Positions 6,434 through 59,589 of a stretch of DNA of 64,000 nucleotides are shown piece by piece. Numbering within the stretch: position 1 is the first letter of the stretch; each line of letters opens with the position of its first letter. Made by a program: the position numbers and the translations under genes. Under the pieces are notes generated by a model. That model was not told where the DNA came from. It made no database searches and saw only the letters and a program-made list of their open reading frames with translations. This DNA is from a virus: positions 1-64,000 of IMG/VR virus record IMGVR_UViG_3300008262_000025; one strand, 5' to 3'.

Positions 6434-9400
6434 TTAAAACGTTCTATTTAAATTCTTTGTCATTTCATCTAAGTTAGTTGCACTAGTAATATTACCAAAT
6501 AGTTTTAAACCTTTAGCATATAATTTGCTATCACCTTTTTTAAATATACCTTGCTCTTTTTCATATACTGCAAAAGGATCAGCAACTTGTGATAGAAAAC
6601 TATAAGCTCTATCTACAGTACCATTAAATGCAGTTGGACTTTTAAAAAGCTTCCAGTTATCACCAAAGAAACTAGGTACAGGAGCTAATGAACCAATTTC
6701 TTTTCTAAGTCTAGTAAGTTCATATAAAGCTAAAGCTCTAAATGCTGATACATCTTCATCATCTTCATCATCACCTATAGCTAATACAGCAACTAATAAT
6801 CCTAATAATAAATAAATACCTAATTCCATAGTTGCTCTTCTAACGTTAGCTTCTTCAAATGGTTGTAAACCTGTATCTTGTTTAGTACCACGGAAACTAT
6901 TCATAAACATTGTACTTAATTTTTTCCAATCAGTAAATAAGTAACTAAAAAATGTTATATAATAACCTTGTCTAATAACACCTACTTCTTCATTTCTATA
7001 AAGTTTACCCCATCTTCTTCTAGCCATAGGTACTAAGAACTTTCTATACATCATAAGTAATCTACCAAATACATTTCTTTGTATGTGAGTTTTATCAAAT
7101 GTAGCATAGTTACCTTGAAGATCTTTATTAATACCATGAAGTTTAGCTCTAATCTGCATATTCTTTTTACTTCTTAAAAAAGGAACACCATCTATATCTT
7201 TTATACCTTTTGCTATAACTTTACCATCAGCATCAAGTTCCATAGATGTTAATAAAGTATCTTTAATTTTATTAAATTCTACTTTTGCTTTTTTCTTTTC
7301 ATCATAAGTAAGTTCAGATCCTTTATCATTAGTTTTCTTTTGCATGTAATCTTCTATGCTATATACTTCACCATTAATAACTTTATAACTATTAAGTAAA
7401 GCATACATTGATGTAGCAGCAGCTTCAATTTCACCTATGTTATTATTAATAAACCAAGTACTTGATCTTAATGCTAAATTAAGTTTTGATGCAGTTAAAT
7501 CATTACCATATTCATCTTGGAATGTACCTTGTAAAGCATCATACATATCAAACAATTGACCTGATAAAGTTTCTCTTGATATCTTACCAAAATCTTTTAC
7601 CATATCCATAGTAAGTGATCCTATCTTATTACTACCATAATATACTAATTTTTTAGCATAACCCCAATCTTTAAGATTATAATGATCAGCGGCCCAACCT
7701 TCTAAGAATATTTGTGTATTAGCTTGTAAGTAGTTAGCAAAACCTTTAATCCAACCAGTAGATGTAATACCACCTATTTGAGCATACGATGCTGCAGTCA
7801 TAAGACCATCTAATAACTTATCTACTCTTACAGGCCCTACTACAGGAATGTTATAATTGATTTCATTATTCTGATCATCAAAGAATTGCATTTCAGTAAA
7901 TGATCTAAGTAATGCACCTTCATAAGTTTCACCTTCTTTGCGTACAAACTTTTCTATACCTAGTTTTTTAGCAACAGCATCGATCATTTTATTACCTTGT
8001 GCATCTCTTTCTATAGCACCACCTTCAGTTGATTTATCTCTTTTATTAATTAAATTTAAGATAGCTCTCATTTGAGGTAATATTTCACTCTTAGCTTTAA
8101 ATCTTTCTGCTTGTTGTATATAAGATAATATAGAGCTTACAACGTCTCTACTGACATTTTCTATATCAATGTGATATACATGTCTAAACGGAAGAGATCT
8201 ATTCTCTAATGATGTACTATAAGTTGCAGTACCTTCAATTAGTTGATCTTCATCTAAATCTATATCTTCACCAGATGTAGATAAATGTCTCATTATATTA
8301 TCATTTTCTATTTCTCTAGTAGCTTTATTTCCAAATTTAGTTTGCCACCAAGATCCAACTCTTTGTTTAAATTTACCTTCTATTAATTCTTCTCTACCAC
8401 TCTTATAAATATACGGTAATCTGTTACCTAATCTGTAAGCAGCAGGCATTTCTGCTTGTGCTTCTTTGTACTTTTTCATAATAACATTATAAAACTCTTT
8501 CCATTTAGGATCAAGTTGTTCATATTTAGAGTTTACCCATAAATGTTTTTTAGGTAACATATATCCTAATTGATCTGTGACTTTATCAAGATCAGTTCTA
8601 ATATATTCTTCTTTTATCTCTGGTGATTTATATAAATAATTAGGAAGTAATTTTACACCTTCAGTTAAAGTTTCATCAATTAATAAATATCCTGATTCTT
8701 TTTTTATTTCTTTATCTTCTTTGTGATTTTTTAAAAACCATTCTGTTTTTTCTAATTCAGCATTAAGAGCTTTATCGTTATAATTAGGATAGATTTGTTT
8801 AATCTTTTCTAATTCATTTTTTCTATCTATTTTGTAACGTTCAGAAATTTTATTAGTTTTATAAGTAGGTACTGTAGTCATCCATGCTCTAATAGGACTA
8901 TAAATAATTTCACCTTCTTTAGTATATTCAACATGATTATTTATATACCATTCAGATTCTTCAAAAAGTATACCATTACTTTCAGCCTTAGCTTGTTCTA
9001 ATTCATATCTTTTATAATATTCTGAATTAGGAACATATTCAACTATTTGATCAATAGCTTCATCAATACCATTTTTTATTTGAAAGAATAAATTCCAAGA
9101 TGGATCTTCTTGTCTTTGTTCACGTGTTACTTTATTAAGTAAGAATAGTTCATTTAATTCTTCTTCTAATTCTTTTAATCGAGCAATTACATCATTAGGT
9201 ATAACTTTAGTATCAACGTGAGTACCACCAAGTCTATATGGTTTTAATAAATCATTTATTTCTTCATTAATTTCATACTCATCATTTTTAGTATTATTTA
9301 ATTCATATTCTTCAAACCATGAATCTATTTTATTAGTAAATGTTTTAAAATTAATTACCTCATCACTTAATAACTTAATTTCATCCATTAAATCATAATC

Positions 9401-44193: not shown

Positions 44194-47137
44194 CTAAAAA
44201 AGAGTTAATTGGTTATTATTAGATATTACATTAATAATCTTATAAGCTTCTCTAACATAATAGTTATAGTTGATGTCATAACAACTAAACTCTTCGCAAT
44301 TATAATACCTGTTAAAAATAGTAGTATTAAAGTCTTTCTCGACATTAGATTCTCTACTGTCGTTATGTACTTTCATTAACGTACCACCTTTATTTGTAAT
44401 TAAATATCTGTTATTCTTTTGTAGTTTTGTTTCTACAAATTCTCTGTCTTCAATCTTACGATGAATAGCTGTCCAACCTTTAGTAACTTTCATTGATAAT
44501 GTAAAGTCATAAATGTCTGTAGAGTTCATTATTGTTTCTTCAATTGGTATATTATGAACATAATAAGCTTCTAAAGCTTTAGGTACTATTTTCATAGAAT
44601 GATCTTTATGCCAATCTTTATTTATCTCAAAGTCACCTTTAAGTTTTGTTTTATCATTTTCATAAACTCCAATATAATTATTAACATCACGTATAATCAT
44701 TTTTTTATAATTAACGTATTCAAGTTCAAGACCAGAAAGTGTTTCCCAATCTTTACATATACTCATAAGTTTATCATAATGACTTTTATGAATCTTAACA
44801 GTAAGACCGTCAGTATTGATCTGTAACAAAGTAGAATCAGTATTTAATATTATTTCTTCAGCTAACATAGTTAATAGCAATTGGCCATTAACAGTAGTAG
44901 CTACAGTGTATGCTGGATCATAAAAGAATGATGTTTCTTCATTGGATTTACCATAAGAACCATTCAAAGCTAATTTTAATCCTTCATTAACAGCTTTAGC
45001 TGTCATGTCGTTTTTATCTATTTTAACTTTCTTTTTTGCAATAGATCTTTTATCATATACACCTTCGTATATATCACAAAACTTTTCACCTAAATGTAAA
45101 GGATAAAATCTATTACGTATTGCTAAATTAGGATAAAAACTACTACATTTGTTTCTGACATTTCTATCAGGTTCGGACTATATCTTAAATTCTTTTGTCC
45201 ATATATAACCCATGTATGATTTTTTATAACCATTACATACTGAGTATATATTTTGCCATTTAAAATCTGGATTATTTGAAATAATATCTTCAACAGAATC
45301 CCACTCTTTTAATAAATTTTTTTCTTTATCGTATTGTAAAAATTTGTATTTTTTCTTTTTTGTTTCTTTTAAAGTTTTAACCATCTTATTAACATTTTCT
45401 GGGTGTGACCAATGTTTTTTAGAATACTCAGAAAGTTTTAATTTATGTTCTGGATATTTTATATATCTTCTTTTTTGAGATTCTGATAATACAATTCTAG
45501 TCTCATGTGAAACAATACATTTAGTTTCAGAATCAATTCTTAAATTATACCCTTTATCTTTATTAGTAGATTCGTATTGATTAATCCAAAATAATTCTTT
45601 TTCTTTTAAAACTTTATCATCAATAATATCAAAATACTCTAATACCTCATATTCAAAAGAATCTCTTCCATATTTAAACCAAGAATGGATTAAATATCTA
45701 TTTTCATTTTTTGATTTTTTATTTAATAAATTTATATGTTGTTTTATTCTAGAATATATATTCTTAGATTTTCCAATATACACTTTATTATTATTTTTAT
45801 TTCTAATACAATAAATTCCACATTTATTAAGATCTCTTTTTCTGTTTAATTTCATAACTAATTATTTAATTGCTTACAATAAGCAAATATAATAAATAGT
45901 TATTTTTAGTTACCTCCTATTATCCAATAAAAGAATTTCCTTGCGCTTCGAATATCCCCTCGATATCCTACTCTACTCCTTTCCGTTTAGCAACGTAGTT
46001 TCGATAGTCTCTGCACGTTCCTTATTTTAACATAAAGCTTCGCTCAGGATTGCCATATTTTATAAACTTAGGTTTCCCTGAATTCACAAGGTTAAGACGC
46101 TAGTAGTTAACGTCTATATCGATAATTATATAATTATCACAAGACTCATATATACCAGGTGCAATACAACCGTGTATACCACCCACACCAAAATCATATT
46201 GAAATCCTTCAAATATAATATGTAAGTTATCTACTGTACCTTTCTTTTTATCAATGAGATTTCTATTGAAATAAGGAATAATTTTACTTACTTTATTTAA
46301 ACTAATATCAGTAAAGAATCCTTTTAAAACAGAACCTTCTATTCTACAAGATTTTAAGAATTCAAGGAGATGTTGAAACTCTTTACTTTTAAAATTAATA
46401 TATGGAAATATTAAATTAGAAAAAACAATTTCATCTCTTTTTGTTCTCATTTCTTTTAACTGAGAAACAGAAATATTCATTTCACTACTAATGATAGATG
46501 CAAATATTTCGGCACCAATCTTAGGAGCATTAGCATTTATAAGAGATAGATTATACTCTTTTGATAATGCTATTCTCATTGTAACTTGTTCTTTACTTTT
46601 TTTGTAGAACTCCCAAGTAGATAAAACATCATTAAGATTATACTTTAATATGTCTTCTACTTCGGAGTTTTCTACAATGTGGTAATGTGGTATTGGCATA
46701 TCTTGAACATTAGACCAATTCATAGCAATTTGAATATGCTTCAATGAAGTTCTACGGTTCTTATTATCGAAATGCCAAATCCTGTACAAGTCTATTTGTT
46801 TGATTTTTACATTCTTTTCTGGTATACTTGAGTATTCACTCTCAATTATTCTTTGACTTTGTTCGTATAATAATTGATTTATTTTATAAGAAGGATAGTA
46901 TTTCCATTTCTTATAATTAGAAAGAATAAAATGTAGTAAAGGGTAGTCATAATTAATATTATTGTACCCTATCATTATATTACAATCATTTAAAAGAAAC
47001 TTTACATACTCTTCTAATTGATTTACATCATTATGTATTACAAATGTTTTTATTGTTTCTGTGTATGGACAATAAGCAGTCATAGAATGAAAGTTTTTAA
47101 GCTGTTCTATGTCATATACCCATACATTATCCTTCAT
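44194..47137 (-). CDS. DNA polymerase family B, two exons (47137-46110 and 45145-44194; 659 aa spliced)
   Basis: Exonuclease motifs YDIE, GYN..NYD, YN.NDV; splicing restores motif A DIDV|SSFYPN; KLALNGSYG, NTDG, DVNNY, KG.F. Confidence 0.93.
45178..45855 (-). CDS. Intron-encoded GIY-YIG homing endonuclease with NUMOD1-like C-terminus
   Basis: CGIYCI...VYIGKS..I..R..QH, E..WI, GYN; C-terminal I..VC.G..KS..GY.W. Confidence 0.93.
   Translation of the reverse strand: MKLNRKRDLNKCGIYCIRNKNNNKVYIGKSKNIYSRIKQHINLLNKKSKNENRYLIHSWFKYGRDSFEYEVLEYFDIIDDKVLKEKELFWINQYESTNKDKGYNLRIDSETKCIVSHETRIVLSESQKRRYIKYPEHKLKLSEYSKKHWSHPENVNKMVKTLKETKKKKYKFLQYDKEKNLLKEWDSVEDIISNNPDFKWQNIYSVCNGYKKSYMGYIWTKEFKI
45884..45891 (-). 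promoter_or_regulatory. Intron-internal -7 promoter element (TATATTTG) for the homing endonuclease
   Basis: TAnnTTTG about 30 nt upstream of the endonuclease ATG, overlapping the hairpin ttgctta-caa-taagcaa. Confidence 0.5.
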
Positions 47138-56422: not shown

Positions 56423-57235
56423 TTACATTGTTTTTAAAATTATATAATGATCTCCTTTCTTGTTTTTAAATTGAAGACCTTTACCTTTAATCCTTATTTT
56501 TTGATTATTTTTAATTTTATCAGGAAGTTTTACATCAACTTTCCCATCTACAGTTTCAACTCTCACTGTAGAGTTAGCATCAGTACTATATAATTTTAGT
56601 TCTGAGATTACTGCAGGTTGATCGTTTTCAACTTTTTCAATCCAAAACTCTTCTCCTTTTTTATAAATAGGTTTTATTATTAAATTACCCATTGGAAGAT
56701 TTTTTATTAAATCTCCAAAAGTATAATAAACTAAATTACCATCTTCATTCATTACGTCTGCTGTAATATTAACCTCAATCATTACATCTTGATATAATAC
56801 TCCAATATTACCACAATTAGAACATCCTTGGTTTTTACACTCTTCACAGGATATCCTTCTTGTATACATTACCATTGTTTTAAAAGTATCATTAATTTGT
56901 TGAACTGTCAGTTCCATATCTATTACAATATCAACTGAAGGTCTTCTTTTCATCCTTTTCTTTACGTTAAAAGTATTAATACTTTCTATAAATTCATCTG
57001 AATCGTAATAAGGACGTGGTGCATTTAAATACTTTACATACTCCTCTTGATGTTTTTTTATATAATCATGAGCAGAATTAATTTTTTTAAATGTCTCTTC
57101 ATCTCCACCTTTCTTGTCTGGATGATGTTCAATTGCGAGTTGTTTAAAAGTAGATTTTAATTTTTCATCATTTAAAGAATCTACAAGACTTAGTTTAAGA
57201 ATTTTACAAGATTCTTCATAGGTTTTAAGAAACAT
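56423..57235 (-). CDS. dnaJ: DnaJ-like co-chaperone
   Basis: J domain HHPDK..GD...FK.I..A; reduced CxxC..CxxCG zinc finger; C-terminal RIKGKG...GDHY. Confidence 0.88.
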   Translation of the reverse strand: MFLKTYEESCKILKLSLVDSLNDEKLKSTFKQLAIEHHPDKKGGDEETFKKINSAHDYIKKHQEEYVKYLNAPRPYYDSDEFIESINTFNVKKRMKRRPSVDIVIDMELTVQQINDTFKTMVMYTRRISCEECKNQGCSNCGNIGVLYQDVMIEVNITADVMNEDGNLVYYTFGDLIKNLPMGNLIIKPIYKKGEEFWIEKVENDQPAVISELKLYSTDANSTVRVETVDGKVDVKLPDKIKNNQKIRIKGKGLQFKNKKGDHYIILKTM

Positions 57236-57623
57236 TTTTTTCTTTTTTAATTAATTTTATAATTATAGGATTCATTTCCAATCTAATAATAAAACCAACT
57301 ATAGAAGCTATAGTGTTTGGAGTTTCTAAACTATCAGTAATTGGCATAAATCTATTTTCAAAACTTTCATAATAATTAGCTTTTTCACTTGTCGTAATAT
57401 AACAATCAGGATCTACTTCAAACCTTCCTAAATTTGGAACAAATATCTCAGGATGAGTAGAATTCCAAAAAGAATTATTTTTTCGATAGTAATTATATAC
57501 TCCTGATTTAGGAAATATTTCATTAGCAAACAATCTAATTAAACCTATAACATTATTATAAGCATCTACTTTATAAGCAATACAATCTCTAATTATTTTT
57601 ATATAACCGTGAGTATTATTCAT
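57225..57623 (-). CDS. Hypothetical protein
   Basis: Start moved to MNNTHG because the longer ORF overlaps the tRNA-like element. Confidence 0.55.
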   Translation of the reverse strand: MNNTHGYIKIIRDCIAYKVDAYNNVIGLIRLFANEIFPKSGVYNYYRKNNSFWNSTHPEIFVPNLGRFEVDPDCYITTSEKANYYESFENRFMPITDSLETPNTIASIVGFIIRLEMNPIIIKLIKKEKNVS

Positions 57624-57636
57624 TATCTTATTGTTT

Positions 57637-57684
57637 TGAGCGATGGAGAGATTCGAACTCTCCATACTCCCTATGAGTATCGCT
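57637..57684 (-). ncRNA. Mini tRNA-like structure (acceptor stem + T-arm, no D or anticodon arm)
   Basis: Minus strand AGCGAT-ACTC-ATAGG-GAGT-AT-GGAGAG-TTCGAAT-CTCTCC-ATCGCT-CA: canonical T-loop, 6+6 bp acceptor/T helix, one short hairpin. Confidence 0.6.
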
Positions 57685-58528
57685 ATAGAAGATTACAGAG
57701 CTCCATAGCTCTAATTAATCTTGTAATTCCAACTCCAGCACCAACTCTTGGAAAGAATTTGTTGCTAAGAAATTCATTTAATTCATTTATTACTCTTTCA
57801 TATCCAAATAAGTCAAATAGCTTTTCAGCATATTTACCATCTTCAATATTAAAGAATGTATCTCTCATTTGTTCAACATTACAAGAACGTTCAGCTGAAC
57901 CAATAGTTTCTTGACCACAAAGAATAACATCTATTTTTTTAGAGTTACCGTTATTGTATCTTTTCATATTCCAGAATGGATTAGTTCTTTCTGGGAAGTT
58001 CATTATAAATAAAGCATTTGAAATAGTTTCACCTAGCTCGTTTTCTAATTCAGAATTAATAATATCTACATCATAAGTTTGACATATATCTTCATAATTC
58101 ATCATTTTATAATCATCAAATCCTAAGAAATCAAGTAATTCAGTTTCAACTAAATGAAGATCTGTCATATCACCTGGAAACTCAAATTCAAACATTGGAA
58201 AGATCATACAATGACGACCTTCTATTGGATTCTTTTCTGCTCTGTATGAGGTACTGAGACAATAAAAACCTGGTACTTCAGGATTGTTTAATAATTCGTG
58301 TTCAAGCCACATTTGACCAGTTTGAGGTAATGGCCATACCTTACCCGCATAATCGTATGTACGAACATTAAACGGGTCTTCACAAGCTGCAAGAATAGAT
58401 AATCTATTCTGAGTGTGTACTTCTAAAAATCCTTTTTCATCAAAGAATTGTCTTAATTTTTTTACAACTTTTGTAAATTTATCAGCATCAATATGCGGAT
58501 AAAAAGAAGAGTGTAATGAGTGCTTCAT
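57683..58528 (-). CDS. Class IIb aaRS (AsnRS/AspRS-like) catalytic-domain-only paralog
   Basis: Motif 1 LR.FF...GFLEV, LPQTGQ..LE, motif 2 SYRAE....GRH...F...EFE, ETIGSAER, motif 3 GAGVG.TRL; no N-terminal OB domain. Confidence 0.88.
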   Translation of the reverse strand: MKHSLHSSFYPHIDADKFTKVVKKLRQFFDEKGFLEVHTQNRLSILAACEDPFNVRTYDYAGKVWPLPQTGQMWLEHELLNNPEVPGFYCLSTSYRAEKNPIEGRHCMIFPMFEFEFPGDMTDLHLVETELLDFLGFDDYKMMNYEDICQTYDVDIINSELENELGETISNALFIMNFPERTNPFWNMKRYNNGNSKKIDVILCGQETIGSAERSCNVEQMRDTFFNIEDGKYAEKLFDLFGYERVINELNEFLSNKFFPRVGAGVGITRLIRAMELCNLL

Positions 58529-58586
58529 TCAAATAATTTTAATCATTAACAATTTTAAATCTCTTTAATTAATCTTTTCGATTATG

Positions 58587-58594
58587 CAAAGTTA
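58587..58594 (-). promoter_or_regulatory. Bacteroidota -7 promoter element (TAACTTTG) upstream of the aaRS-like gene
   Basis: TAACTTTGCA in the 82-nt intergenic gap. Confidence 0.6.
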
Positions 58595-58610
58595 AGAAAT
58601 TAATAAATAA

Positions 58611-59279
58611 TTATAGTAACAATTTATCAGTTTCCCAAGCTTTTAACGTGTGTTCGAAGGGGTTACCTTCTATTTCTGAAACTAATTTTAGCATCTCTTG
58701 TGCTATCTCTCTAATTTCAAGTTGAGCATGTTCTGAATTTCTAAGTTTAAGAAAGTTAGCAAAACTTCTCATATTAAACGATACATCAGATTGTATCTGA
58801 GAGTTATACGTTTTAAAATATCTTGCTGATTCTTTTGCTCTTTTTCTACCAAGTATAGGAGTTAATTGCTCAAGACATTGATGGTAAAGTTTATTACCTT
58901 GTTTTGTATATTTTTCCAAAATTAATTGCCAATCTTCACCTATCAAAGGATCTAATTCACTATCTCCAGCATTACTCCAATCTTGAGGAATATAAAACTT
59001 ATCTTCTTTTAACTCTTTATATCTTGCACTTTCTGCATTAAGACTTGAGATTCTATGCTTTAATAAATGTATATGTGATGCAATATCACAATCAACAAGA
59101 AAATGAACTATACCTTTTTCAAAAGGTGTTTCATGTCCTTCTGACCAAAGCATATTTATTAGTTTAGGAATTCTATCTTTTTTATCTTCTGTTAGTTCTC
59201 TTGATGTAGATGTCCAAGCTGAACATGCTATTATTTCATCAGAACCGTAATGTCCAATTAATTCTACTTTATTTTTCAT
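58611..59279 (-). CDS. thyX: Flavin-dependent thymidylate synthase
   Basis: GHETPFE, HLLKHR..S.N.ESARY, N.RS..NFL.LR...HAQ.EIR. Confidence 0.93.
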   Translation of the reverse strand: MKNKVELIGHYGSDEIIACSAWTSTSRELTEDKKDRIPKLINMLWSEGHETPFEKGIVHFLVDCDIASHIHLLKHRISSLNAESARYKELKEDKFYIPQDWSNAGDSELDPLIGEDWQLILEKYTKQGNKLYHQCLEQLTPILGRKRAKESARYFKTYNSQIQSDVSFNMRSFANFLKLRNSEHAQLEIREIAQEMLKLVSEIEGNPFEHTLKAWETDKLLL

Positions 59280-59280
59280 A

Positions 59281-59589
59281 CTAAATAAATATTTTCTTTT
59301 TAACAATAATGGGAAATACTTCTACCATTACCGTGTGATATTGAAGAGGATCCACTTTATGATTAACAAATAATTTATTAACTTTAAATATAATATTCTT
59401 TGGATCTATACCATGATTTATATATCTCATGTAAAACTTATTATCCTTTTTAAAGATACCTCCAGCACTAAACAAACCATCGTATTCACTTTGATCAATA
59501 ATTTGTTCAAAGTTTTTTTGTTCGTTATTACATAAAAAAATGACTTCCCGAAGGAAGCCATTCTCATCTTTTTCTTGTTTGATTAACAT
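59281..59589 (-). CDS. Hypothetical protein
   Basis: 102-aa ORF abutting its neighbours. Confidence 0.55.
   Translation of the reverse strand: MLIKQEKDENGFLREVIFLCNNEQKNFEQIIDQSEYDGLFSAGGIFKKDNKFYMRYINHGIDPKNIIFKVNKLFVNHKVDPLQYHTVMVEVFPIIVKKKIFI

What the first reader, a model, noticed from the sequence alone, without database searches (positions are those of the whole stretch)
57637..58594. Anticodon-less mini-tRNA joined to the stop codon of an aaRS paralog lacking its anticodon-binding domain
Seen: a 48-nt element starts inside the TAG stop of the AsnRS-like gene and folds as a three-way junction: AGCGAT/ATCGCT acceptor-like stem, ACTC-ATAGG-GAGT hairpin, and GGAGAG-TTCGAAT-CTCTCC T-arm. 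The acceptor+T helix is 12 bp, as in tRNA. There is no D or anticodon arm and no encoded CCA. Because the 5' strand pairs with the 3' strand, it is not just a leftover tRNA 3' half. The gene has its own TAACTTTG promoter. Established: RNase P, RNase Z, CCA-adding enzyme and EF-Tu read the acceptor/T helix; catalytic-only class IIb paralogs include asparagine synthetases and EpmA. Inference: either a cognate enzyme + minihelix RNA pair (non-ribosomal aminoacyl donor, or decoy for tRNA-targeting defence or stringent response), or a mascRNA-like mRNA processing signal.
Basis: partly seen in the sequence, partly recalled or inferred. Interest (0 to 1): 0.85.

Follow-up and report, generated by a model that had tools for sequence, protein, structure and literature searches.

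The report
Anticodon-less tRNA mimic after phage gene
A freshwater phage carries a 46-base RNA fold that copies only the top half of a tRNA, placed exactly at the end of a tRNA-synthetase-like gene; it is real and kept by selection, but it is more likely a signal for cutting or protecting the message than a private substrate of that enzyme.

Summary
On the minus strand at 57684-57639, a 6-bp acceptor-like stem, a 4-bp hairpin and a 6-bp T arm with a canonical T loop start inside the TAG stop of a 281-aa class IIb synthetase core. A strict descriptor finds it once in the 89.6-kb genome and never in 400 shuffles. Protein calls from near relatives that begin inside the element imply one compensatory G-C to C-G swap in the T stem, while the adjacent spacer diverges. 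I infer selection on the RNA, but I could not obtain that DNA.

The "cognate enzyme plus minihelix" reading is weakly supported. A marine phage clade has a conserved long-arm tRNA(GUU) at this spot (82 of 162 loci). The window's gene lies on the other side of the tree, and none of the 51 loci there shows a tRNA. The element lacks that tRNA's invariant U1-A72, G73 and GUU. The enzyme family is fused or adjacent to dihydroorotate dehydrogenase in cells, which suggests a metabolic role.

Best reading (about 0.5): a t-element-like tRNA mimic derived from a long-variable-arm tRNA and read by host tRNA-processing enzymes. No cleavage or expression is shown. This scan noted similar mimics before on other phage DNA.

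The parts
57683..58528 (-). 281-aa class IIb aminoacyl-tRNA-synthetase catalytic core (AsnRS-like, no anticodon-binding domain), P0001
   Evidence: ORF and translation. Pfam tRNA-synt_2, E 3.6e-17. PHROG 29758, function unknown. NCBIfam asnS best but far below its cut-off. Best solved relative is AsnRS 2xgt.
57683..57685 (-). TAG stop codon; its A and G are the first two bases of the acceptor-like stem
57679..57684 (-). acceptor-like stem, 5' strand AGCGAT
   Evidence: Pairs with 57644-57639.
57666..57678 (-). small hairpin ACTC-ATAGG-GAGT, in the position of a variable arm (2 nt before the T stem)
   Evidence: Sequence and fold. T arms with this sequence belong mostly to tRNA-Ser/Leu in phages. 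The Rfam mirror match covers a T arm plus an adjacent hairpin.
57645..57663 (-). T arm GGAGAG-TTCGAAT-CTCTCC
   Evidence: Pair probability 1.0 in every context folded. Pair 57662:57646 is inferred to be C-G instead of G-C in the P0004/P0012/P0016 lineage.
57639..57644 (-). acceptor-like stem, 3' strand ATCGCT
57638..57638 (-). discriminator-like C; no CCA follows (AAAAC)
   Evidence: None of the genome's 7 ARAGORN tRNAs encodes CCA either.
57225..57623 (-). downstream gene of unknown function; conserved start is ATG 57623 (132 aa). The longer 146-aa call from ATG 57665 begins inside the T arm.
   Evidence: Homologs P0003, P0005, P0006 and P0008-P0010 start at the downstream Met. No Pfam, PHROG or Atlas hit.
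58587..58594 (-). TAACTTTG motif in the 82-nt gap upstream of the gene
   Evidence: Present, but the motif class is not enriched in the window.
58611..59306 (-). upstream neighbour: flavin-dependent thymidylate synthase (ThyX)
   Evidence: Pfam Thy1, E 1.1e-35.

Best explanation
The element is a functional tRNA-like cis-element. It copies the top half of a long-variable-arm (type II, Ser/Leu-like) tRNA: acceptor stem, variable-arm-like hairpin and T arm, without the D and anticodon arms. It is transcribed as part of the message, between the synthetase-like gene and the next gene.

Proposed mechanism (inferred, not shown). Host tRNA-processing enzymes recognise the 12-bp acceptor/T stack and the T loop, and cut at its ends. 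The candidates are RNase P at the 5' side, RNase Z or another 3' endonuclease after the discriminator, and possibly the CCA-adding enzyme. Cutting would separate the two cistrons and/or leave a structured, exonuclease-resistant end. This is how t-elements act on plant mitochondrial messages.

Shown: the anatomy, its non-random nature, its position at the gene junction, and its identity across three freshwater samples over the parts that each contig covers.

Inferred from proteins only: one compensatory T-stem change and one G.U-compatible change in near relatives.

Not shown: any transcript end, cleavage, CCA addition or effect on expression.
For: 1. Anatomy. A 6+6-bp stack, a canonical G-TTCGAAT-C T loop and a short hairpin 2 nt before the T stem.

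2. Not chance. 1 hit in the genome against 0 in 400 shuffled genomes.

3. Selection on the RNA.
- In the 90%-identity cluster of P0004, three of nine members were called from the ATG inside the T arm. These are P0004, P0012 and P0016, at 78% identity to the downstream protein.
- They read MQSSNLCIAQ where the window reads MESSNLSIAQ.
- E to Q needs G to C at 57662. S to C needs C to G at 57646. These two bases pair with each other, so G-C becomes C-G.
- They are the only two differences in those ten codons. By my own count, two random changes there would hit partner bases and restore pairing about 1 time in 100.
- The next codons, which form the spacer, differ almost completely and by one codon in length: NNKI against KTIIK or KIIMK.
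- P0007 starts at the window's ATA codon (57680-57678). The simplest change is A to G at 57678, which turns A-U into G.U in the small hairpin.

4. Origin in a type II tRNA.
- The 17-nt T arm occurs in IMG/VR mostly in tRNA-Ser (36) and tRNA-Leu (29) among 98 ARAGORN-called hits, out of 120 segments.
- The only Rfam match near the element is to the plus strand (RF04351, E 0.049, far below gathering). Its consensus reads as the mirror image of a T arm plus an adjacent hairpin.

5. CCA. None of the genome's 7 tRNAs encodes CCA. The host must therefore trim such ends and add CCA, and the element's CCA-less end fits that route.

6. Precedent. Plant mitochondrial t-elements sit at mRNA ends and are cut by RNase P and RNase Z. 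Some lie inside reading frames (PMC1920247, passages read). They are CCA-tailed and base-modified but not aminoacylated (PMC11658184, passages read).

7. Other phages. Other phage loci fetched here hold ARAGORN-negative acceptor + T-arm folds, two of them within 6 nt of a stop codon: L175:9430-9460 and L225:1406-1466.
Against: 1. It is a single copy. The descriptor finds no second one in the 89.6-kb genome and none in 846 kb of relatives' loci. It does not punctuate an operon.

2. The covariation rests on protein calls. I never saw the DNA of those relatives. It is one pair, and that pair supports the T hairpin but not the acceptor stem.

3. In longer contexts the three-way junction has only 0.02-0.40 pair probability. 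A bulged 12-bp hairpin is preferred.

4. Cleavage by RNase P at the 5' end of the 6-bp acceptor stem would remove the AG of the stop codon and leave a non-stop message.

5. Most relatives manage with an ordinary terminator or a directly abutting gene at this junction.

6. No RNA data bear on the element.
Confidence: 0.5

Rival explanations
1. Neutral relic. The element is a pseudogene of a type II tRNA that lost its D and anticodon arms through an internal deletion and has no present function.
For: - Its T arm is typical of tRNA-Ser/Leu.
- An internal deletion would keep both acceptor strands, so their pairing is not in itself evidence of function.
- The same genome holds other tRNA fragments: orphan T-arm hairpins at genome 73037-73054 and 72859-72875.
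- A truncated tRNA(GUU) exists in the marine clade, in L053 and L117.
- The element is a singleton.
Against: - All 16 stem pairs are intact Watson-Crick pairs.
- The sister lineage shows an inferred compensatory swap, while the adjoining spacer has diverged and changed length.
- A deletion that removes exactly two arms and leaves three perfect helices is unlikely without selection.
Confidence: 0.2
2. Cognate pair. The mini-tRNA, after CCA addition, is the acceptor that the anticodon-domain-less synthetase paralog charges. It would then serve as a non-ribosomal aminoacyl donor.
For: - The element touches the enzyme's stop codon.
- In the marine clade the same position holds a dedicated tRNA with strong covariation: 17 of 24 pairs, 49 distinct sequences.
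- An enzyme without an anticodon-binding domain could contact only the parts that the element retains.
- The enzyme gene and the downstream gene travel together. Seven pairs of cluster members lie on contigs of identical length.
Against: - Tree: all 59 tRNA-bearing rows form one clade of 68 rows with local support 99. The window lies among 51 loci without a tRNA plus bacterial homologs.
- The element has A1-U72 and C73 and no anticodon. The partner tRNA has invariant U1-A72, G73 and G34-U35-U36.
- 9 of 12 longer homologs are fusions with dihydroorotate dehydrogenase. That gene also lies next to or near the homolog in two of eight cellular loci sampled.
- In 50 of 56 cellular loci ARAGORN finds no tRNA at all. 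Three more hold only an unrelated tRNA more than 100 nt away.
- Four complete or nearly complete genomes of the freshwater clade hold no tRNA(GUU) of this type.
Confidence: 0.1
3. Decoy. The free tRNA top half titrates a host factor that acts on tRNA acceptor ends or T arms, such as an acceptor-end-modifying toxin of an abortive-infection system.
For: - The element keeps the parts of a tRNA that are not needed for decoding.
- The genome invests heavily in tRNA mimics and unusual tRNAs.
Against: No defence or counter-defence gene is identified next to it. It is a single copy. There is no expression evidence.
Confidence: 0.05
4. Plain hairpin. The element is a 12-bp bulged stem-loop acting as a transcript-end or pause structure, and its tRNA likeness is incidental.
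For: The extended hairpin is the preferred fold in longer contexts.
Against: - No U tract follows, and the terminator scan finds nothing on the minus strand there.
- The loop with its closing pair is an exact T-loop consensus, and the 12-bp length equals the acceptor/T stack.
Confidence: 0.1

Closest known systems
t-elements of plant mitochondria (Forner et al. 2007, PMC1920247; Arabidopsis tRNA aminoacylation landscape, Plant J. 2024, PMC11658184; passages read)
   Same: Both are tRNA-derived folds with a T-arm motif, placed at the 5' or 3' ends of protein-coding messages. Neither has an encoded CCA. Some t-elements overlap the reading frame, so the message loses its stop. They act as RNase P / RNase Z signals and are not aminoacylated.
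   Different: - Those are organellar and mostly near-full cloverleaves. This one is in a phage and is 46 nt, with no D or anticodon arm.
- The T motif departs from GGTTCRANYCC at its two outer positions.
- Cleavage is demonstrated for t-elements and is not demonstrated here.
AsnRS-like gene plus long-variable-arm tRNA(GUU) module of marine T4-like cyanophages (for example P-SSM2 PSSM2_198 with its 'tRNA-Asn', and P-SSM7 PSSM7_129/130)
   Same: The homologous enzyme is 57-63% identical. An RNA with an acceptor stem, an extra arm before the T arm and a T arm begins within a few bases of the stop codon.
   Different: - The marine RNA is a full 81-108-nt tRNA with D and anticodon arms.
- It has invariant U1-A72, G73 and GUU, and usually an encoded CCA (37 of the first 39 loci).
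- The two enzymes lie in separate clades.
tRNA acceptor-T-arm minihelices and mascRNA-type tRNA-like processing signals (recalled from general knowledge, not read here)
   Same: The 12-bp acceptor/T stack with a T loop is the part that RNase P, RNase Z, the CCA-adding enzyme and EF-Tu recognise.
   Different: Minihelices are laboratory substrates, and mascRNA is a eukaryotic nuclear cloverleaf. Neither is a natural phage element.
Anticodon-less tRNA mimics noted earlier in this scan on other phage DNA (e1-6120289, e1-6090415 and others; unpublished AI notes)
   Same: Both are folds of about 45 nt that copy only the tRNA top half and sit on or just after stop codons. One earlier case is in a Bacteroidota phage.
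   Different: Those come in arrays of 5-15 that punctuate an operon. This is a single copy. I could not compare sequences with them.

Membership tests
Canonical tRNA (Rfam RF00005; ARAGORN) | Cloverleaf with D arm and anticodon arm, detectable by tRNA finders | tested here: not met
   ARAGORN finds 0 genes in the window. There is no RF00005 match at E up to 10 in 57000-59000 and none at gathering score in the window.
t-element-like tRNA mimic used as an mRNA processing signal | tRNA-derived acceptor stem plus T arm with the conserved T-loop motif | tested here: met
   6+6-bp stack with G-TTCGAAT-C. 0 such elements in 400 shuffled genomes. The outer pair of the GGTTCRANYCC motif is A-U here.
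t-element-like tRNA mimic used as an mRNA processing signal | Lies at the end of a protein-coding message or at a gene junction | tested here: met
   It starts in the TAG stop and ends 14 nt before the conserved ATG of the next gene.
t-element-like tRNA mimic used as an mRNA processing signal | Transcript ends coincide with the ends of the fold (RNase P / RNase Z cleavage); non-encoded CCA or C/A tails | not testable with these tools
   The one RNA run laid gave a single contig inside the gene only. Contigs cannot show ends.
Phage AsnRS-like + tRNA(GUU) module | Full type II tRNA with invariant U1-A72, G73 and anticodon GUU, 4-10 nt after the stop | tested here: not met
   The position is met. 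The element has A1-U72, C73 and no anticodon. Model R1 matches only the T arm: 9.3 bits, E 4.2.
Phage AsnRS-like + tRNA(GUU) module | Enzyme belongs to the tRNA-bearing clade | tested here: not met
   The FastTree split with local support 99 puts the window with 51 tRNA-less loci and 9 database proteins.
Intrinsic terminator | G+C-rich hairpin followed by a U tract | tested here: not met
   AAAACAAT follows the hairpin. No minus-strand terminator-like site lies in 57000-59400.
Asparaginyl-tRNA synthetase (class IIb), for the enzyme | Catalytic core with motifs 2 and 3 | tested here: met
   Pfam tRNA-synt_2 covers residues 19-274. The motif-2 stretch aligns to Brugia AsnRS.
Asparaginyl-tRNA synthetase (class IIb), for the enzyme | N-terminal anticodon-binding OB domain; reaches the asnS family cut-off | tested here: not met
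   The 281 aa align from profile position 138 of 451. Score 37 bits against a cut-off of 414.
EpmA / GenX (EF-P lysine ligase) | Reaches the family cut-off | tested here: not met
   21.9 bits against 264.

The most novel reading that the evidence does not exclude
The mini-tRNA is the minimal private acceptor of the anticodon-domain-less synthetase paralog. Trimmed and CCA-tailed by host enzymes, it would be charged by the phage enzyme and would act as a ribosome-independent aminoacyl carrier. It would be a stripped-down counterpart of the enzyme plus tRNA(GUU) module of marine cyanophages, acquired independently in this lineage.
Probability: 0.08. Interest if true: 0.9.

Novelty: new variant of a known kind. 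Interest (0 to 1): 0.45.

Why it matters
If host tRNA-processing enzymes do cut or cap this element, phages of Bacteroidota-type hosts use the same trick as mitochondria: tRNA-shaped punctuation that defines message ends. I found no paper describing this for phages in two full-text searches. The element would also be a compact, portable RNA-processing tag.

The neighbouring enzyme matters separately. It belongs to a highly conserved family, 50-60% identical from phages to Bacteroidota, Chlamydiae, candidate-phyla bacteria and DPANN archaea. Its function is untested. It is linked to dihydroorotate dehydrogenase in cells and to a dedicated tRNA in marine phages.

The link between enzyme and mini-tRNA in this window may be positional only. 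That limits the surprise.

Tried and rejected
1. TAG recoding. The genome has an amber-suppressor tRNA(CUA) at 72914-72982. I asked whether the gene's TAG is read through, which would make the element coding. TAG ends 14 of 69 long minus-strand ORFs, and the standard code already gives 73.5 kb of long ORFs on that strand. Homologs end at the same residue. Rejected.

2. Vertical relic of the tRNA(GUU). Rejected on the tree and because complete relatives have no such tRNA.

3. Exact searches of IMG/VR for the T arm plus acceptor, as a 25-mer and a 21-mer, gave 0 hits. The window's own record and near kin are withheld there, so this says little.

4. Relatives through the enzyme. IMG/VR and metagenomes reach no closer than 76% identity. 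Closer kin at 79-100% exist as proteins only.

5. Relatives through the downstream protein. None in IMG/VR and none in cultured phages.

6. Reads.
- The stretch is held by 20 rows of 15 studies, mostly lake, river or other freshwater metagenomes.
- Contigs of X8 (57352-57745), X13 (57200-57672) and X17 (57473-57666) match the window with no differences over what they cover.
- Only X8 spans the whole element. There is no variation to test covariation.
- The RNA run X20 gave one 154-nt contig inside the gene (57841-57994). It gave nothing over the element, and an RNA library can hold DNA. I draw no conclusion on expression.

7. Model R1 of the marine tRNA finds no tRNA(GUU) in the own genome. 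It finds tRNA-Leu and two Leu-like mimics.

8. ESM Atlas for the downstream protein: no usable hit.

9. The sigma-70 promoter scan is at chance level.

10. tmRNA-like origin. Several ARAGORN-negative IMG/VR hits with the same T arm looked to me like tmRNA 3' ends. This was by eye and not tested. The element has C3-G70, not G3.U70.

This report is the same with that field added and one mistyped coordinate range in item 6 corrected.
Full report
WHAT IS THERE

The window is the first 64 kb of an 89,557-nt IMG/VR virus record estimated at 53% complete. The genome is 27% G+C, and 69 of its 82 long ORFs lie on the minus strand. The stretch occurs in many lake, river and other freshwater metagenomes.

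The gene at 57683..58528 (minus strand) encodes a 281-aa class IIb synthetase catalytic core with no anticodon-binding domain.

Reading the minus strand from the A of its TAG stop gives, in order:
- AGCGAT
- ACTC-ATAGG-GAGT
- AT
- GGAGAG-TTCGAAT-CTCTCC
- ATCGCT
- C, then AAAAC

This makes a 6-bp acceptor-like stem, a 4-bp hairpin and a 6-bp T arm with a textbook T loop. The total is 46 nt plus a discriminator-like C, with no D arm, no anticodon arm and no CCA.

IS IT MORE THAN CHANCE?

ARAGORN and Rfam do not call it. I used a strict descriptor: a T loop with its G-C closing pair, at least 12 stacked Watson-Crick pairs, and an inner hairpin of at least 4 bp. It hits once in the real genome and never in 400 shuffled genomes. 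A looser descriptor gives about 1.2 hits per shuffled genome, so the strictness matters.

Thermodynamically the isolated 53-mer folds as the three-way junction, at -17.7 kcal/mol. In 61- to 251-nt contexts a bulged 12-bp hairpin that extends the T arm is preferred. There the acceptor and small-hairpin pairs have probabilities of only 0.02-0.40, while the T-stem pairs stay at 1.0. Either fold presents a 12-bp helix capped by a T loop, which is the tRNA "top half".

THE SAME SPOT IN RELATIVES

The enzyme has hundreds of phage homologs. In 82 of the 162 loci examined, a tRNA follows the gene within 300 nt, and in 79 of those it begins 4-10 nt after the stop.

That tRNA has these features:
- 81-108 nt long, with a Leu-like D arm and a long variable arm
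- invariant U1-A72, G73 and G34-U35-U36
- compensatory changes at 17 of 24 pairs across 49 distinct sequences

This supports the general idea that this enzyme family can be tied to an RNA partner. P-SSM2 and P-SSM7 are cultured examples.

However, a FastTree of 128 distinct proteins puts all 59 tRNA-bearing rows in one clade (68 rows, local support 99). The window lies across that split, with 51 tRNA-less loci and 9 database proteins that include bacterial chromosomal homologs. The tree has SH-like support only, is midpoint-drawn, and identical rows were collapsed.

Further points in the same direction:
- In the window's half of the tree the gene is followed by an ordinary terminator or by the next gene.
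- Four complete or nearly complete genomes of that half, and the window's own genome, hold no tRNA(GUU) of this type. They hold only tRNA-Leu and Leu-like mimics.

The element is therefore not a vertically inherited, shrunken copy of the marine partner tRNA. It is a lineage-specific acquisition.

WHERE IT CAME FROM

ARAGORN calls a tRNA in 98 of the 120. Of those, 36 are tRNA-Ser and 29 tRNA-Leu, both long-variable-arm types.

The small hairpin sits 2 nt before the T stem, where a variable arm sits. The only Rfam match near the element is to the opposite strand, and its consensus reads as the mirror image of a T arm plus an adjacent hairpin (E 0.049, far below gathering, so a hint only).

I read the element as a type II tRNA without its D and anticodon arms.

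IS IT UNDER SELECTION?

Near relatives exist but their DNA was out of reach. Their proteins were available.

The gene pair is conserved. Synthetase-like proteins of the same 90% cluster, and one at 87% identity, lie on contigs whose lengths equal those carrying homologs of the downstream protein. The lengths are 28887, 34881, 47517, 3264, 68397, 2662 and 43286 nt. I infer that the two genes stay together.

The downstream protein's conserved start is the ATG at 57623. Some gene callers instead started at the ATG at 57665, inside the T arm, and so translated the element.
- The window reads MESSNLSIAQ. P0004, P0012 and P0016, from a lineage 78% identical in the protein, read MQSSNLCIAQ.
- E to Q requires G to C at 57662. 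S to C requires C to G at 57646.
- These two bases pair in the T stem, so the pair changes from G-C to C-G.
- They are the only differences in ten codons.
- The following spacer codons are almost entirely different and one codon longer.
- P0007 begins at the window's ATA codon (57680-57678). The simplest change makes the first hairpin pair G.U.

This pattern points to constraint on RNA structure rather than on a peptide. It is still one pair, inferred from proteins, and it supports only the T hairpin.

THE ENZYME

Of 12 longer homologs, 9 are fusions of dihydroorotate dehydrogenase (PF01180) with this domain, at 53-57% identity.

Homologs at 50-61% identity occur in Bacteroidota, Chlamydiae, Dependentiae, candidate-phyla bacteria, Alphaproteobacteria and DPANN archaea. 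The tRNA content of these 56 cellular loci breaks down as follows:
- In 50, ARAGORN finds no tRNA at all.
- In 3 (L306, L307, L309), the only tRNA is an unrelated one more than 100 nt away.
- 3 (L311, L313, L340) carry the marine phage-type tRNA, detected by ARAGORN or seen by eye in L313. These look like phage contigs binned into genomes.

Dihydroorotate dehydrogenase lies immediately upstream of the homolog in L304 and two genes upstream in L295, among eight loci sampled. In the window the upstream neighbour is ThyX.

I infer a tRNA-independent metabolic role linked to pyrimidine synthesis. The role is untested, and the marine tRNA linkage remains unexplained.

HOW THE ELEMENT MOST LIKELY WORKS

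The element keeps the features that RNase P, RNase Z, the CCA-adding enzyme and T-loop modifiers read. It has none of the features used for decoding or for the partner tRNA's identity. The genome's seven tRNAs also lack an encoded CCA, so the host must process such ends.

The closest described analogues are plant mitochondrial t-elements. They define mRNA ends through RNase P and RNase Z, sometimes inside reading frames, and are CCA-tailed but not charged.

I therefore favour a cis-acting processing or stabilising signal at this gene junction, with confidence about 0.5. The rivals are a neutral relic (0.2), a plain hairpin (0.1), the enzyme's substrate (0.1) and a decoy (0.05).

One weakness is specific. 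In the three-way fold, RNase P would cut within the stop codon. In the extended-hairpin fold it would cut 14 nt downstream and spare it.

RELATION TO EARLIER NOTES OF THIS SCAN

Other agents reported arrays of anticodon-less tRNA mimics at stop codons in other phages and pointed to t-elements. They also reported the link between this enzyme family and pyrimidine synthesis.

I tested the second claim directly. I tested the first only partly. In 1.05 Mb of unrelated phage loci I found several ARAGORN-negative acceptor plus T-arm folds, two of them within 6 nt of a stop codon.

Two full-text searches found no paper describing such elements in phages. Subscription journals and supplements were not covered.

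VERDICT

This is a new variant of a known kind: a tRNA-like processing signal in a phage, in a minimal type II-derived form. Interest is moderate, because it is a single copy without expression data and its tie to the enzyme may be positional only.

Noticed in passing
L165:12391-12443 (-) = genome 89391-89443; L164:3585-3648 (-) = genome 67585-67648: Two sub-threshold ribozyme matches beyond the window's end: twister-P1 (60 bits, gathering 67.2, E 2e-11) and RAGATH-1 hammerhead (45.1 bits, gathering 56.3, E 1.2e-4).
   Followed up: no
genome 72914-72982 (-), outside the window: An amber-suppressor tRNA(CUA) lies in a genome that still uses TAG as a stop in 14 of 69 long minus-strand ORFs.
   Followed up: partly
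genome 82185-82271 and 82558-82680 (-); L003:713-788, L016:1013-1150, L004:5488-5645, L167, L168: These are tRNA-Leu-like RNAs with a normal top half (acceptor mostly AGTCAGG or AGTCCTG, Leu-type D arm). In place of a normal anticodon loop they have a 12- to 98-nt insertion. They recur in the freshwater relatives.
   Followed up: partly
genome 73037-73054 and 72859-72875 (-) (L164:9037-9054, 8859-8875): Two orphan T-arm hairpins flank the suppressor tRNA. One is followed by a terminator-like hairpin. The other has its 3' acceptor strand closed into a palindrome.
   Followed up: no
window 44194-45861 (-): A GIY-YIG-type endonuclease ORF (45178-45861) runs in frame, across a single TAG, into a DNA-polymerase-like fragment (44194-45177). 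It looks like a homing endonuclease gene next to a split polymerase gene, not like readthrough. The motifs were recognised by eye and not scanned.
   Followed up: partly
alignment A1 (49 marine phage tRNAs; e.g. L037:3816-3901, L049:3815-3897, L138:2034-2131): The dedicated tRNA(GUU) has an irregular anticodon loop. Position 37 is usually U (CUGUUUA). The normally universal U33 is A or C in some sequences (L037, L103, L138, L049). G34-U35-U36 never varies.
   Followed up: no
L053 and L117, just after the gene: Only the 5' half of the tRNA(GUU) is left, running into unrelated sequence. This is a decayed copy within the marine clade.
   Followed up: no
L311, L313, L340 (GTDB contigs titled Flavobacteriaceae, Legionellales, Neomarinimicrobiota): These genome-bin contigs carry the marine phage-type enzyme plus tRNA(GUU) pair. 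They are probably phage contigs binned into bacterial genomes.
   Followed up: no
L175:9430-9460 (+); L225:1406-1466 (+); L272:4150-4215 (+): Unrelated IMG/VR phages hold ARAGORN-negative tRNA top-half folds. L175 has a perfect 7+5-bp minihelix 6 nt after a TAG stop. L225 has a 62-nt acceptor + hairpin + T arm 2 nt after a TAA. L272 has a 67-nt form with a D arm but no anticodon arm.
   Followed up: partly
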